NCBI RefSeq assembly: GCF_044647545.1
Contig: NZ_CP172818.1
Strand: one strand, 5' to 3'
DNA: 64,000 nucleotides
Origin: Escherichia coli
GTDB lineage: Bacteria; Pseudomonadota; Gammaproteobacteria; Enterobacterales; Enterobacteriaceae
Below are positions 1 through 9,000 of the stretch, piece by piece. Within the stretch, counting starts at the first letter, position 1; each line of letters opens with the position of its first letter. The position numbers were made by a program.

Positions 1-3000
1 GTCGTCATGGAACGCCGGCAGACAGTGCAGGAACTTCACGTTCGGGTTGTCGGTCAGCGCCATCATCTGCGCGTTCACCTGATACCCGCGCAGCAGCGCA
101 ATCCGCTCTGCCCACTTCTCTTTGGCCTCGCCCATCGACACCCACACGTCGGTATAGATAAAGTCCGCGCCCTTAACGCCTGCCGCCACGTCTTCCGTCA
201 GAGTAATTTTCCCGCCGTGCTTCTCCGCCAGCGCGCTGCACTCCGCCACCAGGCTCTCTTCCGGCCAGCAGGCTTTCGGGGCCAACAGGCGCAGATCCAG
301 CCCGGTCAGCGCCGCCGCTTCCAGCATCGAGTTGCCCATGTTGTTGCGCGCATCGCCCGCGTAGACCAGCGTCATCTCGTTAAACGCCTTGCCCGGCAGG
401 TGCTCCTGCATGGTCATCAGGTCCGCCAGCAGCTGGGTCGGGTGGAACTCGTTGGTCAGCCCGTTCCACACCGGCACGCCCGCATACTGCGCCAGCGTTT
501 CGACCACTTCCTGGCCGTGACCGCGATACTGAATGCCGTCATACATCCGCCCGAGAACCCGCGCGGTGTCCTTAATTGACTCTTTATGCCCAATCTGGCT
601 GCCGCTCGGCCCTAAATAGGTAACGCGCGCGCCCTGGTCAAATGCGGCAACTTCGAAAGAGCAACGGGTACGAGTCGAGTCTTTTTCGAAGATGAGCGCG
701 ATGTTTTTACCGGTAAGCTTCTGTACTTCCTTGCCATTTTTTTTATCGGCTTTGAGCTGTGCGGCAAGGGTCAGCAGAGAAGTGAACTGTGCAGGGGTAA
801 AGTCGAGCAGTTTCAGAAAGTGTTTTTTGTATAAATCGGACATTTTATCCTCGCATGGCGAACGCCACTTATTGAATTAAAATTCACTTTATATGTGTAA
901 TTATTCATTTGCAACCCCATTTCACAATTCTTTCTTACAAAGGTGGAGGCAAACCCGTCCGTGTGTGAAAATAATCGTATCTGCCTCCGATTCTCTGCAG
1001 AAGCAGAAAGACATTGGATCGAATTCTACAACCAGGTCGAGTCAGAAATGAGAATGATTGGCCTTCTTTATGATTTTAAGGATTATGCTTCTAAAATGGC
1101 GGAGAACATGGCGAGGCTTGCTGCCTTACTTCATTACTTCAGCGGTGATGGAGGCGATATATCTGTTACCGGGTAATGACTCCAACTTACTGATAGTGTT
1201 TTATGTTCAGATAATGCCCGATGACTTTGTCATGCAGCTCCACCGATTTTGAGAACGACAGTGACTTCCGTCCCGGCCTTGCCAGATGTTGCCTCAGATT
1301 CAGGTTATGCCGCTCAATTCGCTGCGTATATCGCTTGCTGATTACGTGCAGCTTTCCCTTCAGGCGGGATTCATACAGCGGCCAGCCGTCCGTCATCCAT
1401 ACCACGACCTCAAAGGCCGATAGCAGGCTTAGAAGACGCTCCAGCGTGGCCATTGTGCGTTCACCGAAAACGTGCGCAACGACCGTCCTCCGGAGCCTGT
1501 CATACGCGTAAAACAGCCAGCGCTGGCGCGATTTAGCCCCGACGTATCCCCACTGTTCGTCCATTTCCGCGCAGACGATGACGTCACTGCCCGGCTGTAT
1601 GCGCGAGGTTACCGACTGCGGCCTGAGTTTTTTAAATGGCGGAAAATCGTGTTGAGGCCAACGCCCATAATGCGGGCGGTTGCCCGGCATCCGACGCCAT
1701 TCATGGCCATATCAATGATTTTCTGGTGCGTACCGGGTTGAGAAGCGGTGTAAGTGAACTGCAGTTGCCATGTTTTACGGCAGTGAGAGCAGAGATAGCG
1801 CTGATGTCCGGCGGTGCTTTTACCGTTACGCACCACCCCGTCAGTAGCTGAACAGGAGGGACAGCTGATGGAAATAGAAGCCACTGGAGCACCTCAAAAG
1901 CACCGTCATACACTAAATCAGTAAGTTGGAAGCATCACCGAATTTTCAGCCCGGATGTTTCACGTACCTATGTCGAATATCTGGCCGATAAGGTTGCGGA
2001 TCGAGAAGAGGATGCAGAGGAATATCTGGAAGCAATCATGGAGGCTCGTGTTACCGTTGCTGGCATGGGGCTGGTGATGGAGGTGCAGGATTACTTCGAT
2101 GGCGAGGCCGATAGACTGGCGAAGGCGTGGCTGGCCGAGTACACACCGCAAATCAAGTCGTTGAAAGATGAGCGTAAAGAGGCCTATCGTCAAATCGTCG
2201 AAATGAGTACCGAACCGCAGGATGTGGATCTGGTCAGGCCGGCGAACAAGTTTGAAATGACCAGGGTGCGTGAAGGTGAAAAGGAAGCTGACCTTCCAGT
2301 CTGGAAACACCATTTGTTGTGTGACGAAAGCGGGAACTATCCGGCTCTGTTGAACCATTGGGAAACCAAGGTTTTTGAGATCGAAACCAAACGTGAAGGA
2401 TTTGCTTTCTGGTATCGTAATCCACAGTACACAGGGCAGTCGTCACTGGGAATCGCTTATGTTGAAGCTGAACAGTACAAGATTGTTCGTCCCGATTTCC
2501 TGTTCTTTGCCGAACAGGATGGCAAAATGGTTGTGGACCTGGTAGATCCACATAGCCTACATCTGGCTGATGCTTTGCCCAAACTGGAAGGACTTGCGCT
2601 ATATGCCGAACATCATTCTGATGCTTACAGGCGAATCGAATCTGTCGCCGAAGTAAAGGGTAAATTACGAGTGTTAGATTTGAAACGGCAGGATGTGCAG
2701 GATGCTGTTGCTACCGCTGAAAATGCAGAAACGTTATTTAGTAGCGGACTTGCTGATGACTATCAGTAATCTATAGAAAATTGCGTAACGAAACTGCATT
2801 TTAGTAATTTTTTGAAACAATACAAATAAGGCCTTCTCACTGAGAAGGCCATTACCGACTTACAGTTCGATTTGGCTACAGCCGAAGTTACGGTCTCCTT
2901 CACCAAACACTTTGCTTTCAACTTTGGTCAGGTAGTCCAGTCGGGTTAACAGCGCCTGGTAGTTCTGCTGGAAGTCAGTACTATTGGTGTCTAGCACATA

Positions 3001-6000: not shown

Positions 6001-9000
6001 CTCTTCCATGGACGCAGGATCGTTAAAGGATTGAGTTGTTTTACTTGAATTAATACACCAGCGAGCTCTGATAGCTGCCAGAGTGGGTTCTATGGATACA
6101 GTTGCTGGGGTTGCCATTGGCTTATCTCCTGTGTAGTTGCTGTATCATTGACTAAACTGTGTATTACGATACATGAAAATCTATCTTGATCAATAGTTGA
6201 TGATATTTTGTAATATGTTGATTTTTAATGGAATCAACGCATATCAACGTTGTTTTTTATGGTAATACCTGCTTCATTTAAGATCCATGTCTCAATTTTC
6301 TCGTGCCATTTTCGTAACAGATCTAACGGACGACGGCGATAGTGTTTTTCGGCAAGAGCGCTGGGTTTGTGTCCCATAATTTGAGCAACAATACCAGTGG
6401 GAACTTCAACCCACTCGGCCAAAGTACCAAAACTACGACGTAAACCGTGAAGGCTGATATGTGGTAACTCAGCCAGCACTAATGCTCTGTTGTGCGCTGA
6501 ACGCGGCTCAATAATTTTGCCACTTTTACTGTTACTTCTGAAAACCCAACCCTCCTTATTTACGTCAGAATTTGGGGATTGCGCTAGTACATTTAACAAT
6601 TCAGAAACATAAGGAGTGAGAGGGATGATACGTTCACCTTCGATCTTGTCTTTAATTCGCATGCTTGACCATTTGAAATCTACGTCTGACCAGCGAAGCG
6701 ACGCAATTTCTTCACGCCGAGCACCAGTGAGCAAAAGTACTTGGAGATAGGCCGATGCAATAGGATTATTGAGGCTACGCACGGCACTAAACCAGCTTTT
6801 TAGTTGTTCCTTTTGCAGGCAATCATCAGCTTTACTCGCTGACACGGGAACCATTTTTCTTACGTTGTAATCTTGTGCCAGATCGCCAGGAATGATCCCT
6901 TGATATTTTTTCTGATAATTACTCCATTTGATGAAAGCACGTAGTAGGCGATAAGCGTGAGCAGTGACGGTAGGTCTATTTTGCCTTTCTGTACTCAGCC
7001 ACGCTGCTATGTAATCTGGGGTTAGCTCCGATAACGGCAGGTTGAGCAAACTAGCCAATGGTCCAGCCGAAGTCGGGCCTTGGCCTCTTTTTTTACTTTC
7101 GCCTCCACGACTGGACAAGTTAATGTGATCGGCAATGTATCGAGTAGAATATGGGCGTTTAGTTTTTGCACTGATACCGGTTCTCAATTCTTGAAGATAG
7201 TCTTCCCAGGCGACGGAGAAAGTCACTTTTGTTTTACGTGATTCTGCCTGCAGGGATTCTGCTTCTGCGATTTTTACAGCCTTAGCAATTCGTGGATCTA
7301 TCCCTGTATCGATCAATGTTTGTAACCGTCTTGCCTCGGCTCTCGCATCATCAATCTTCCAGTCGTTAATGTTGCCAATAGTCATGCGAAGGGTTTTCCC
7401 CGCATATACGCTTTGGAATACAAAGGCTTTTGCTCCGCTAGTTGCTCGGCATGCCAGGGTTGTTACATCTGCATCCCAAAGAAAAGTTTGTTTTTTCCCT
7501 TCCGGTAAGGTGAATCTGCGAAGTCTTTCGAAGGTAAATTTTTGTCTTGAAAGCGCCATTTTTCGGCTCCAGTTGAGAATTGCTGTCTTACAATAATGTA
7601 ACTGCTGGTGTAAGTAAATGGAGGGAATAAACATCAACTTTTGTTAATTTCAATCAACGGGTTTATTGCTATAACTTGGTGTTTTATAATATAAAGTATG
7701 TTGTTTTGATTGATTGCTCAAGTAGTTAAAAATGCATTAACATCGCATTCGTAATGCGAAGGTCGTAGGTTCGACTCCTATTATCGGCACCATTAAAATC
7801 AAAGAGTTACCCCATATTTAAATACACCACGTTTCCTCCTGTGCCGTATTTGTGCCATTGTAACCTTGGCAATTCATCAAAATACTGTTCTGACATCAGG
7901 CAGTGCAGGTGCAGACATTTAAGCCAATTGCTGCCGCCATTCTTTGACGTAGTCAATCAGGGCGCGGAGCTTTGGTGCAATATTGCGACGCTGTGGGAAA
8001 TACAGATAGAAGCCCGGAAATTGTGGAAGAAAGTCATCAAGCAGCGATACAAGCTTACCGCTTTCAATATATGGCCTGAAAGTTTCCTGAGTGGCAATTG
8101 TTATTCCTCCGCCGGCAAGAGCCAGCCTCAACATCAGACGCAGATCATTAGTCGTAATCTGCGGTTCAATCGCAAGGTCGAAAGTTCTCCCGTTTTCTTC
8201 AAATGGCCAGCGATAAGGCGCAACCTCCGGGGACTGACGCCAGCCGATACACTTATGGGTATTTCCCCCGGAGGCGAGAAAGCACTCTCCACGCCCGGCC
8301 GCAAGGATCAGGACGACGGGGGCAGGCATGAATCCTCCTCCTGATGGAGACGTACAGAGGCGACTTCTGCCAGCACGGAGAGTGCCAGAGTATGCGCATC
8401 CCGGGCTTTGGGGAATATCCCGACGGGTGCCCGGATTTGCGTTGTTTCCTCCCTGGACCATCCCAGCTCGTGGAGCTTTTGCAGACGTAACGTGTGGGTT
8501 CGATAGCTGCCCAATGCGCCGAGATAAAAGGGTTTTGCTTCTCGCGCGGCCTGCAACACTGGCAGCTCCCGGTTGAGATCATGGCACAGCAAAATGACCG
8601 CCGTATCGGTATCGATCTGAGCGCTGGCTGAGGCCGGAAAAAGATCGAAGATATGGCTGTCATAGCCTGTGGCTGCTGCAAGACTCGCGGTTGCCTGCGC
8701 CTCAAGAGAACGTCCGTAAATCATCAGCCTGACGCATGGCCTGAACCCCACCTCAAAGCCATTGAGATTCCAGCCCGTCCGGGTTTGCGTGGGCAGGCAC
8801 ACCAGCGATTGTGCTTGCGGATCGTAGCGCAGCCCCACCGGTTTTCTCTGTTCCAGGCGGTTCAGCACGGCGAGCAGAGGCTGTGCCGAGCGTAGTTTAT
8901 GGAGCGTCAGCGTGATCCCACCGCCGCAGGGCAGAACGATGTCAAACCACGGCGAACCTTCGCCATAGCGAATTTCGCGATCGCGGCCTGAGCCCATCAT

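What the first reader, a model, noticed from the sequence alone, without database searches (positions are those of the whole stretch)
2038..7792. AT-rich integrase-proximal cargo module of uncharacterised genes at the prophage right end
Next to the P4-type integrase intF and the tRNA-Thr 3' fragment lie six uncharacterised ORFs in near-contiguous arrangement on the minus strand (yagN, an AlpA-like ORF, yagM, yagL, yagK) plus convergent yagJ. Composition is visibly AT-rich compared with the flanking pao and arg genes, indicating horizontal origin. Integrase-proximal positions in P4-like and other integrative elements are known hotspots for anti-phage, anti-defence and regulatory cargo. None of these proteins shows a motif I can tie to a known defence family, so it is the best place in the window for genuinely undescribed function, but this is a hypothesis only.
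Basis: partly seen in the sequence, partly recalled or inferred. Interest (0 to 1): 0.55.

Follow-up and report, generated by a model that had tools for sequence, protein, structure and literature searches.

The report
Island backbone genes beside dead restriction gene
This stretch of the E. coli K-12 CP4-6 cryptic element is mostly its conserved integration, regulation and DNA-nicking backbone, and the only true cargo gene, yagJ, is the IS1-truncated tail of a known type III restriction enzyme, so it is not a hidden new defence module.

Summary
The window is the right end of E. coli K-12 CP4-6, the ORFs lie where stated, and the block is AT-rich (GC 0.33-0.46 against 0.58-0.64 in the flanks).

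- **yagJ is a relic of a known defence gene.** It is the last 275 codons (residues 583-857) of an 857-aa type III restriction Res subunit, cut by IS1. A related element (L024) has the same yagK junction, 100% identical in DNA, followed by intact Res and Mod.
- **intF-yagN-ykgV-yagM-yagL-yagK is backbone, not cargo.** The order AlpA-type HTH, YagM, YagL, YagK next to an integrase recurs in E. coli, Klebsiella, Citrobacter and Salmonella.
- **The cargo starts after yagK.** DNA immediately past yagK varies and carries known defence systems: Druantia II, Qat plus Gabija, a Ppl-like ATPase, type IIG and type III R-M, and AbpAB/RnlAB in CP4-57.

Gene assignments:

- YagK is an HUH Rep-like endonuclease, by motifs and fold.
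- YagM has a ribbon-helix-helix domain plus an orphan C-terminal domain.
- YagL is a serine-recombinase relative lacking three catalytic residues.
- YkgV is an AlpA/excisionase-type HTH protein.
- YagN remains an orphan.

None of these matches a PADLOC defence family above noise. A conserved, strongly self-complementary 271-nt yagL-yagK spacer is unexplained. Interest is modest.

The parts
1172..1939 (-). IS1 copy (insA/insB) that truncates the res gene. It is context for the finding, lying just outside its coordinates.
   Evidence: The terminal inverted repeats GGTAATGACTCCAACTTACTGAT and ATCAGTAAGTTGGAAGCATCACC were read. The element is annotated as an IS1B family transposase. The flanking 9 bp differ (ctgttaccg versus gaattttca), so there is no target-site duplication. 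This points to an IS1-mediated deletion or rearrangement.
1940..2769 (+). 3' remnant of a type III restriction Res gene. The annotated yagJ ORF is 2038-2769. This is the only cargo gene in the block and it is inactive.
   Evidence: The frame is open back to the IS1 end. The 275 codons are 94% identical to residues 583-857 of the 857-aa protein in L006, and 98% identical to the one in L024. Both sit directly after a methyltransferase that matches PADLOC MTase_III at 5e-286 and 7e-294. The precomputed Pfam family is PF27151 'YagJ', and several sources name homologues 'type III restriction enzyme'.
2830..2850 (.). Perfect 10-bp-arm hairpin between the convergent yagJ and yagK genes, likely a bidirectional terminator. 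It lies in the 90-bp spacer that marks the backbone/cargo boundary.
   Evidence: The hairpin was found. The spacer and both gene ends are 100% identical to the intact yagK/res junction in L024. In other loci homology to K-12 is lost right after yagK, with identity 0.42-0.51.
2860..3486 (-). yagK: a small HUH (Rep-like) endonuclease of the YagK/YfjJ family. It is the last backbone gene before the cargo slot.
3487..3757 (-). Conserved, strongly self-complementary yagL-yagK spacer containing an invariant sigma70-like promoter. Its function is unknown.
   Evidence: Alignment A7 of seven loci has 81% mean column identity. Nucleotide identity is 0.76-0.83 in loci where yagK drops to 0.61 or yagL to 0.56. 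Folding z-scores are -3.75 (sense RNA), -2.91 (antisense RNA) and -4.89 (ssDNA). The promoter TTTAGA-16-TATAAT lies at 3690..3663. There is no Rfam match. Covariation is weak and inconclusive.
3758..4456 (-). yagL: a divergent serine-recombinase-like protein with a C-terminal HTH. The true start is probably M44 (window 4327), giving 189 aa.
   Evidence: Matches are NCBIfam Mpi-family invertase 8e-11, well below its cut-off, PHROG DNA invertase 4e-8, and Pfam Resolvase 9.5e-4 plus HTH_7 and sigma70_r4-type HTH. Homologues are 189 aa. dN/dS is 0.16-0.26. The gene is frameshifted in RM9387 and reduced to a 64-aa HTH in Salmonella.
4483..5337 (-). yagM: a ribbon-helix-helix DNA-binding domain followed by a family-specific alpha/beta domain of unknown function.
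5456..5680 (-). ykgV: an AlpA/Vis/excisionase-type HTH protein. It is the likely excision factor and/or activator for intF.
   Evidence: Pfam HTH_17 scores 3.5e-6. PHROG 66 'excisionase and transcriptional regulator' scores 1.4e-6. RefSeq names it an AlpA family regulator in some genomes. It occupies the position that alpA holds in CP4-57.
5677..6117 (-). yagN: an orphan 146-aa protein whose stop overlaps the ykgV start by 4 bp. It is found with IntF-type integrases.
   Evidence: There is no family hit. Only 13 clusters exist among 5.8 billion, all enterobacterial. It is present with the 441-467-aa integrase type. In IntA-type elements a divergent 253-295-aa gene on the opposite strand takes its place. 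dN/dS is 0.33-0.40. yagNM is a transcribed operon with a Rho-dependent terminator (PMC4150792).
6234..7637 (-). intF: a P4-type tyrosine integrase.
   Evidence: PHROG 1 integrase scores 1.9e-40. Orthologues carry Arm-DNA-bind_3 and Phage_integrase. dN/dS is 0.09. CP4-6 excises at 1-27 per 100,000 cells (PMC3105296).
7716..7792 (+). tRNA-Thr-like attR. Its 3' part, from about 7744, duplicates the 3' end of thrW.
   Evidence: Rfam tRNA scores 45.5 bits at 7716-7789. Homology to the thrW locus of island-free strains starts at window 7741-7744. The sequence was read. ARAGORN makes no call here.

Best explanation
The block is the integrase-proximal backbone of a CP4-type (CP4-57-like) integrative element, plus one dead cargo gene.

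**Shown.**
- yagJ is the 3' third of a type III restriction Res gene. Its motor domains and its partner methyltransferase were lost through an IS1-associated rearrangement, so it cannot restrict DNA.
- The order AlpA-type HTH, YagM, YagL, YagK next to a tyrosine integrase is conserved across genera and attachment sites.
- The DNA just beyond yagK is a swap-in slot for defence systems. On its far side lie the GTPase, DUF932 and WYL genes of the element.

**Inferred.**
- IntF with YkgV (AlpA/Vis-like) excises the element, which is known to excise at low frequency.
- YagK, an HUH endonuclease, nicks the excised circle at a specific site to start rolling-circle replication or single-strand mobilisation.
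- YagM (ribbon-helix-helix) and YagL (a catalytically crippled resolvase kept for its HTH) act as DNA-binding accessory or regulatory proteins. They possibly act on the conserved, hairpin-rich yagL-yagK spacer.
- YagN is an integrase-type-specific accessory factor, translationally coupled to YkgV.
- In K-12 the operon is kept low by Rho-dependent termination.
For: **Identity.**

**YagJ as a Res remnant.**
- The frame is open to the IS1 end.
- It is 94% identical to Res residues 583-857 in L006 and 98% identical in L024.
- The adjacent Mod matches PADLOC MTase_III at 5e-286 and 7e-294.
- The yagK/res junction DNA is 100% identical in L024.

**Backbone against cargo.**
- Synteny holds in RM9387, EC2641, K. 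oxytoca, C. koseri, Salmonella, L022 and L024.
- Homology ends after yagK.
- The cargo was identified as Druantia II, QatABCD, GajB, PD-Lambda-4_B, a Ppl-like ATPase, type IIG R-M and type III R-M.
- CP4-57 has abpBA and rnlAB in the same slot after yfjJ.

**Protein assignments.**
- YagK as HUH.
- YagM as RHH.
- YagL as a degenerate resolvase.
- YkgV as HTH_17/AlpA.

**Function retained.**
- Purifying selection acts on all the genes.
- CP4-6 excision has been measured (PMC3105296).
- The yagNM operon is Rho-terminated (PMC4150792).

**Precedent.** Pseudomonas tmRNA islands have intY, alpA and an inovirus-Gp2-like protein as 'core' genes plus defence cargo, and one of them is moved by a jumbo phage (PMC12595487).
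Against: - No biochemical or genetic data exist for YagK, YagL, YagM or YagN. All four are listed as uncharacterised in the 2024 y-ome review.
- No nick site or origin has been identified.
- Upstream regions of other YagK-family genes are not unusually structured. The spacer cannot therefore be a general origin for the family.
- YagL decays in some lineages, so it is dispensable there.
- YagM and YagN evolve faster, with dN/dS up to 0.58.
- The Res protein matches PADLOC REase_III models only weakly, at 1e-9 over about 75 residues. It has no PDB sequence relative.
- The catalytic-residue check for YagL used resolvase and Hin sequences recalled from memory.
Confidence: 0.7

Rival explanations
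1. One reading: the minus-strand genes, especially YagM and YagN, are accessory cargo encoding an undescribed anti-phage, anti-defence or regulatory function.
For: - YagM's C-terminal domain and the whole of YagN have no recognisable relatives.
- Both families are small and taxonomically narrow.
- YagM and YagN evolve faster than intF and yagK, as conflict genes often do.
- The element family is a defence carrier.
- An RHH N-terminus resembles type II antitoxins.
Against: - The genes keep a fixed position and order beside the integrase, whatever cargo follows.
- There are no PADLOC matches for YagK, YagM or YagN. YagL and YkgV give only weak hits over their HTH.
- Recognisable defence systems always lie past yagK.
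- YagN is translationally coupled to the AlpA-like gene and co-varies with integrase type. That fits an excision or regulation role.
Confidence: 0.1
2. The module in K-12 is a decaying relic with no present function, and its ORFs survive only by chance in a silenced, AT-rich region.
For: - CP4-6 is a rearranged cryptic element. It carries an IS1 with no target duplication, a DUF3987 fragment and a res fragment.
- yagL has lost catalytic residues and is frameshifted or reduced elsewhere.
- The operon is Rho-terminated.
- ykgV has dN/dS 0.84 against RM9387, though on few substitutions.
Against: - All six ORFs are intact in K-12.
- dN/dS is 0.07-0.16 for yagK, 0.09 for intF and 0.16-0.26 for yagL.
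- The non-coding spacer is conserved.
- CP4-6 still excises.
- Transcripts of yagM, yagN, yagL and intF are detectable and respond to an rpoZ deletion (PMC5811629).
Confidence: 0.15
3. The yagL-yagK spacer is an invertible promoter switch (inverton), flipped by YagL acting as a DNA invertase, giving phase-variable yagK expression.
For: - The best family hits for YagL are DNA invertases.
- The spacer holds an invariant promoter enclosed by imperfect inverted repeats about 19 nt long and about 150-160 bp apart.
- The catalytic serine is retained.
Against: - No inverted orientation was found among 376 E. coli genomes with the spacer, of which 367 records are covered at 80% or more in a single piece.
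- None was found among the seven loci from four genera.
- R8, D67 and R68 are replaced in all family members.
- The repeats are imperfect, with a bulge and a mismatch.
Confidence: 0.04

Closest known systems
CP4-57 cryptic element of E. coli K-12 (intA-yfjH-alpA-yfjI-yfjJ, then abpBA, rnlAB, then yfjP...)
   Same: - It has a P4-type integrase at a tRNA or tmRNA site and an AlpA-type HTH gene next to it.
- It has a YagK/YfjJ-family protein, 45% identical to YagK.
- Anti-phage cargo follows immediately after that gene.
- The GTPase/DUF932/WYL/antirestriction/RadC/CbtA-type backbone then follows.
   Different: - CP4-57 has YfjI (DUF3987) between alpA and yfjJ, where CP4-6 has YagM and YagL.
- CP4-57 has a divergent yfjH instead of yagN.
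- The structured spacer is absent upstream of yfjJ.
- The CP4-6 cargo is a dead type III res remnant rather than live AbpAB/RnlAB.
Type III restriction-modification systems (Mod plus Res)
   Same: YagJ is 94-98% identical to the C-terminal 275 residues of a Res-like helicase-nuclease. That protein is encoded directly after, and overlapping, a type III methyltransferase in related elements.
   Different: - In the window the first 582 residues, including the motor domains, and the mod gene are missing.
- The intact Res is a divergent member. It matches PADLOC REase_III only weakly and has no sequence relative in the PDB.
HUH endonucleases of the Rep class (parvovirus NS1/Rep, SIRV1 ORF119, Helitron, RepB, CRESS Rep)
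   Different: - It is only 208 aa, with no helicase domain.
- It is chromosomal-island encoded.
- There is no identified origin or nick site and no demonstrated activity.
- It is nearly absent from sequenced phages, with one unverified contig.
- In plasmids it occurs inside large replicons, not as the plasmid Rep.
Pseudomonas tmRNA-site genomic islands I23/I44/I55 (PMC12595487)
   Same: They have a tyrosine integrase, AlpA, an inovirus-Gp2-like protein and HTH proteins as proposed core genes, with variable defence cargo. They excise through the integrase.
   Different: - They are in a different genus and have a different gene order, with alpA and the Gp2-like gene at the end far from the integrase.
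- They are much larger.
- Transfer by a jumbo phage has been shown there. Nothing comparable is known for CP4-6.
Serine recombinases (resolvase/invertase family; Hin, gamma-delta resolvase, Mpi)
   Same: YagL has a weak Resolvase N-domain and an HTH_7-type C-terminal HTH. It retains Y6, S10, Q14 and R71 equivalents.
   Different: R8, D67 and R68 equivalents are replaced, and no PDB recombinase is matched at E of 1 or better. It probably binds DNA without recombining it.

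Membership tests
Type III R-M Res subunit (YagJ) | Sequence homology to a Res protein encoded next to a type III Mod methyltransferase | tested here: met
   YagJ is 94% and 98% identical to residues 583-857 of the 857-aa proteins in L006 and L024. The neighbouring gene matches PADLOC MTase_III at 5e-286 and 7e-294.
Type III R-M Res subunit (YagJ) | Presence of the ATP-dependent helicase-like motor domains | tested here: not met
   The window retains only codons 583-857, and IS1 abuts codon 582. 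The PADLOC REase_III match in the intact protein lies at residues 361-435, which are absent here.
Type III R-M Res subunit (YagJ) | Cognate mod gene adjacent | tested here: not met
   Upstream of yagJ lie IS1, a DUF3987 fragment and argF. No methyltransferase is present.
HUH endonuclease superfamily (YagK) | HUH metal-binding motif | tested here: met
   H108-Y-H110 is conserved in 9 of 10 diverse family members.
HUH endonuclease superfamily (YagK) | Catalytic tyrosine motif (YxxK) C-terminal to HUH | tested here: met
   Y185 is nearly invariant and K188 is invariant.
HUH endonuclease superfamily (YagK) | HUH/Rep fold | tested here: met
HUH endonuclease superfamily (YagK) | Site-specific ssDNA nicking and joining at an origin | not testable with these tools
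   This needs biochemistry. No nick site has been identified.
Serine recombinase (YagL) | Full catalytic set (R8, S10, D67, R68, R71 in resolvase numbering) | tested here: not met
   S10 and R71 are present. R8 is I/M, D67 is S and R68 is C in all four YagL-family sequences.
Serine recombinase (YagL) | Resolvase N-domain plus C-terminal HTH architecture | tested here: inconclusive
   Pfam Resolvase scores 9.5e-4 and HTH_7 scores 3.9e-3. NCBIfam Mpi invertase scores 42 bits against a cut-off of 272. No PDB match was found.
AlpA/Vis/excisionase HTH family (YkgV) | HTH_17/AlpA-type domain in a protein of about 70 aa next to a P4-type integrase | tested here: met
   HTH_17 scores 3.5e-6 and PHROG 66 scores 1.4e-6. 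The position matches that of alpA.
Ribbon-helix-helix (CopG/Arc/MetJ) DNA-binding proteins (YagM N-domain) | Beta-strand followed by two helices, structurally matching RHH proteins | tested here: met
Known anti-phage defence systems (PADLOC v2) for YagK, YagL, YagM, YagN, YkgV | Significant match to any defence-system protein model | tested here: not met
   YagK, YagM and YagN have no hits. YagL's HTH tail gives CARF3 models at E 0.002-0.007. YkgV gives mad1 at 3e-4 and PDC-M06B at 6.4e-3 over its HTH. These hits are treated as generic HTH similarity.
P4-like satellite / PICI | Capsid-redirection or packaging genes (psu, delta, sid; terS, ppi, rpp) and a primase-helicase replication gene | tested here: not met
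   Within 1-8000, only a 77-aa DUF3987 helicase fragment is present, on the opposite strand. No PHROG or NCBIfam hit to packaging or capsid functions was found. The rest of CP4-6 lies outside the window and was not examined.

The most novel reading that the evidence does not exclude
YagM (RHH plus an orphan domain), YagL (a recombinase turned DNA-binder), the conserved hairpin-rich 271-nt spacer and YagK (an HUH nickase) could together form an undescribed replication or mobilisation engine. After IntF/YkgV-mediated excision, it would let this enterobacterial family of small integrative elements amplify or hitch a ride on a helper phage or plasmid. That would spread interchangeable defence cassettes, as shown for the Pseudomonas I55 island with a jumbo phage.
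Probability: 0.3. Interest if true: 0.55.

Novelty: new member of a known kind. Interest (0 to 1): 0.3.

Why it matters
The result re-labels six K-12 'y-genes'.

- yagJ should be treated as a pseudogene fragment of a type III restriction enzyme.
- yagN to yagK should be read as the backbone of a defence-island carrier, not as candidate defence genes.

It also gives a practical landmark. In this element family, the DNA right after the YagK/YfjJ gene is where defence cassettes are swapped in, up to the conserved GTPase gene in the elements where the far side was seen. That is useful for mining new systems.

How CP4-type islands move is still unknown. The HUH protein, its RHH and HTH partners and the conserved spacer are concrete, testable candidates for that mechanism.

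Tried and rejected
- **PDB sequence searches.** Searches for YagK, YagL, YagM, the intact Res and a YagJ-family profile gave nothing usable. The only marginal hit was YagM residues 187-248 against 3D0J at E 0.028.
- **YagK in phages.** A search of 50,697 phage records found only one unverified low-coverage 4.5-kb contig. The name 'inovirus Gp2' does not reflect close phage relatives.
- **YagK in plasmids.** It sits inside large conjugative or other replicons, next to AlpA, DUF932, WYL and CbtA-type genes. It is not a plasmid Rep.
- **Inverton hypothesis.** This reading of the yagL-yagK spacer is disfavoured, because no opposite orientation occurs in 376 genomes or seven loci and YagL lacks catalytic residues.
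- **Spacer as a general origin.** The spacer is not a general origin upstream of all YagK-family genes, since the yfjJ, Pseudomonas and Klebsiella upstream regions fold no better than shuffles.
- **Rfam.** No known RNA family matches the block apart from the tRNA-like attR.
- **Covariation on the spacer.** The result was too weak to separate RNA from DNA structure.
- **IMG/VR scan with a YagM profile.** Only three loci were found. The first attempt, with the diverse alignment, failed for lack of conserved stretches.
- **Not done.** The PD-(D/E)xK nuclease assignment of the YagJ domain is therefore untested.

Full report
**What the region is.** Window 1900-7900 is 100% identical to E. coli K-12 derivatives. 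It carries yagJ, yagK, yagL, yagM, ykgV, yagN and intF, followed by a LysR pseudogene and paoD/paoC. This is the right end of the cryptic element CP4-6. GC falls to 0.33-0.46 across 2500-7750, against 0.58-0.64 in the pao and argF flanks. The tRNA-Thr piece ends at 7792. Homology to the thrW locus of island-free strains begins at about 7741-7744. Rfam scores 7716-7789 as tRNA-like.

**yagJ is a fragment of a known defence gene.**
- The yagJ frame stays open upstream of its ATG, right up to the end of an IS1 copy at 1172-1939.
- The IS1 has no target-site duplication. Its other side abuts an unrelated DUF3987 fragment. A rearrangement or deletion therefore occurred there.
- YagJ homologues carry the precomputed Pfam family PF27151 'YagJ', and several sources name them 'type III restriction enzyme'.
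- In E. coli MMC-J-0085 the same sequence is the tail of an 857-aa 'DEAD/DEAH box helicase'. That gene overlaps the stop of a 709-aa methyltransferase. The methyltransferase matches PADLOC MTase_III at 5e-286, and the large protein matches REase_III models weakly.
- The 275 codons in the window align to residues 583-857 at 94% identity.
- IMG/VR contig L024 has the complete arrangement. YagK is followed by a 90-bp spacer with the same hairpin, then a convergent Res of 857 aa (98% identical over the YagJ part) and a Mod of 722 aa (MTase_III 7e-294).
- The yagK/res junction DNA in L024 is 100% identical to K-12.

YagJ is therefore a dead relic of a type III R-M cassette. It lacks its motor domains and its methyltransferase.

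**The minus-strand genes are backbone, not cargo.** The order AlpA-type HTH, YagM, YagL-like HTH protein, YagK beside a tyrosine integrase recurs in these loci:
- E. coli RM9387 at thrW, 94.7% identical
- E. coli EC2641 at ssrA
- Klebsiella oxytoca and Citrobacter koseri at ssrA
- Salmonella
- IMG/VR loci L022 and L024

YagN accompanies the 441-467-aa IntF-type integrase. Elements with the 413-aa IntA-type integrase have a divergent gene on the opposite strand in its place.

Nucleotide homology to K-12 ends within the 90 bp after yagK, where identity is 0.42-0.51. What follows differs in every lineage and consists of recognised defence systems:

| Locus | Cargo after yagK/yfjJ |
|---|---|
| K. 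oxytoca | Druantia type II (DruM, DruF, DruG and a large helicase) |
| C. koseri | PD-Lambda-4_B, QatABCD and Gabija |
| RM9387 | TrlF/Ppl-like ATPase |
| EC2641, L022 | Type IIG R-M with a helicase, a GIY-YIG nuclease and a BRO-N protein |
| L024, ancestrally K-12 | Type III R-M |
| CP4-57 | abpB-abpA and rnlA-rnlB after yfjJ, before the yfjP GTPase |

The far side of the slot is the GTPase/DUF932/WYL backbone. It starts one gene further from the integrase than proposed, and in K-12 it holds only the res stump.

**What the backbone proteins look like.**
- **YagL.** It is a far-diverged resolvase or invertase relative with an HTH tail. Homologues are 189 aa, so the annotated 232-aa start is probably too far upstream. 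Aligned with gamma-delta resolvase and Hin (sequences recalled from memory), it keeps S10 and R71. R8, D67 and R68 are replaced in all four family members.
- **YkgV.** It is an HTH_17/AlpA/excisionase-type protein.
- **YagN.** It is an orphan restricted to a few enterobacterial clusters, and its stop overlaps the ykgV start.

**Are they functional?** dN/dS values against relatives are:

| Gene | dN/dS |
|---|---|
| intF | 0.09 |
| yagK | 0.07-0.16 |
| yagL | 0.16-0.26 |
| yagM | 0.23-0.58 |
| yagN | 0.33-0.40 |
| ykgV | 0.36-0.84 (few substitutions) |

CP4-6 still excises at 1-27 per 100,000 cells (PMC3105296). yagN-yagM is a transcribed operon with its own promoters and a Rho-dependent terminator (PMC4150792). 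Its transcripts respond to loss of the RNA polymerase omega subunit (PMC5811629). All five genes are still listed as uncharacterised (PMC11551758).

**Most likely mechanism (inferred).**
- IntF with YkgV excises the element. This is by analogy with AlpA and IntA of CP4-57 and with P4 Vis, which rests on established knowledge rather than a test here.
- YagK nicks the circle to start rolling-circle replication or single-strand transfer.
- YagM and YagL bind DNA as accessory or regulatory factors.

The pairing of an RHH protein with an HUH nuclease is the usual relaxosome layout. This is a resemblance, not a demonstration. A related precedent exists in Pseudomonas. There, tmRNA-site islands with an integrase, AlpA and an inovirus-Gp2-like protein as proposed core genes carry defence cargo, and one of them is transferred by a jumbo phage (PMC12595487).

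**An unexplained element.**
- The 271-nt yagL-yagK spacer (3487-3757) is as conserved as the genes around it. Identity is 0.76-0.83 in loci where yagK drops to 0.61 or yagL to 0.56.
- It contains an invariant TTTAGA-16-TATAAT promoter.
- It folds far better than shuffled controls, with z of -3.75 as sense RNA, -2.91 as antisense RNA and -4.89 as ssDNA.
- A long-range imperfect inverted repeat encloses three hairpins.
- It has no Rfam match, and covariation is too weak to decide between RNA and DNA structure.
- It is specific to the YagM/YagL/YagK module and is absent upstream of other YagK-family genes.
- An inverton reading is disfavoured, because no flipped copy exists in 376 genomes and YagL lacks catalytic residues.
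- It may be the origin or operator of the module. This is speculation.

**Verdict.** The sequence facts are right. The 'cargo module with possibly new defence function' reading is not supported for yagN to yagK, and it is contradicted for yagJ, which is a known system in ruins.

What is new is modest. It amounts to a clearer functional map of six K-12 y-genes, a landmark for a defence-cassette slot in CP4-type islands, an orphan domain in YagM, an orphan protein YagN, and a conserved structured spacer. Defence-carrying integrative elements at tRNA and tmRNA sites in E. coli are already described (PMC10121019).

Noticed in passing
window 3487-3757: The yagL-yagK spacer is conserved as well as the flanking genes across four genera. 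It is strongly self-complementary (z -3.75 as RNA, -4.89 as ssDNA) and encloses an invariant sigma70-like promoter. It has no Rfam match, and its function is unknown.
   Followed up: partly
window 943-1171 (+) and 1172-1939: A 77-aa fragment of a DUF3987 helicase-like gene (ykgS, PHROG 'DNA helicase' 1.2e-13) lies on the opposite strand to the module. It abuts an IS1 that has no target-site duplication. The IS1 therefore joins two unrelated truncated genes, which is evidence of an IS1-mediated deletion or rearrangement next to argF.
   Followed up: partly
L027/L028 7001-7702; L025 2181-2876; L002-L004 (gene at 10001-10897 in L002/L003): Stand-alone ORFs of 231-298 aa that are YagJ-like recur in unrelated bacteria beside other defence or mobile genes. 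Neighbours include Lamassu-type genes (Cap4 nuclease, MC4, LmuB_C), a HEPN-Toprim gene, and an integrase next to a T6SS cluster. Where checked (Providencia protein P0004 and L027), homology to Res begins at about residues 570-600, as in K-12. This suggests repeated cassette replacement that leaves the conserved 3' end of res behind.
   Followed up: partly
window 3758-4456 and 4483-5337: Annotated starts look too far upstream. YagL homologues are 189 aa and begin at the residue equivalent to M44. Most YagM-family members are about 250 aa and lack the 33-aa N-terminal extension of the K-12 protein, which is predicted disordered with low pLDDT.
   Followed up: partly
window 7716-7789: Rfam's tRNA model matches end to end at 45.5 bits, but ARAGORN calls no tRNA here. 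Only the 3' part from about 7744 is shared with thrW, so the 5' part is island-derived sequence that mimics a tRNA.
   Followed up: no
L011 12430-20756; L009 12530-20714; L007 14068-16719; L022 4786-11712: The slot after YagK holds a different set of defence systems in each lineage. C. koseri has PD-Lambda-4_B, QatABCD and Gabija, and K. oxytoca has Druantia II. RM9387 has a TrlF/Ppl-like ATPase, and L022/EC2641 has type IIG R-M with a helicase, a GIY-YIG nuclease and a BRO-N protein. The helicase, GIY-YIG and BRO-N genes had no PADLOC match and were not examined further.
   Followed up: partly
window 57003-57083: ARAGORN finds a tRNA-Ser(GGA) gene far from the finding. It is another potential integration site in the window and was not examined.
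   Followed up: no
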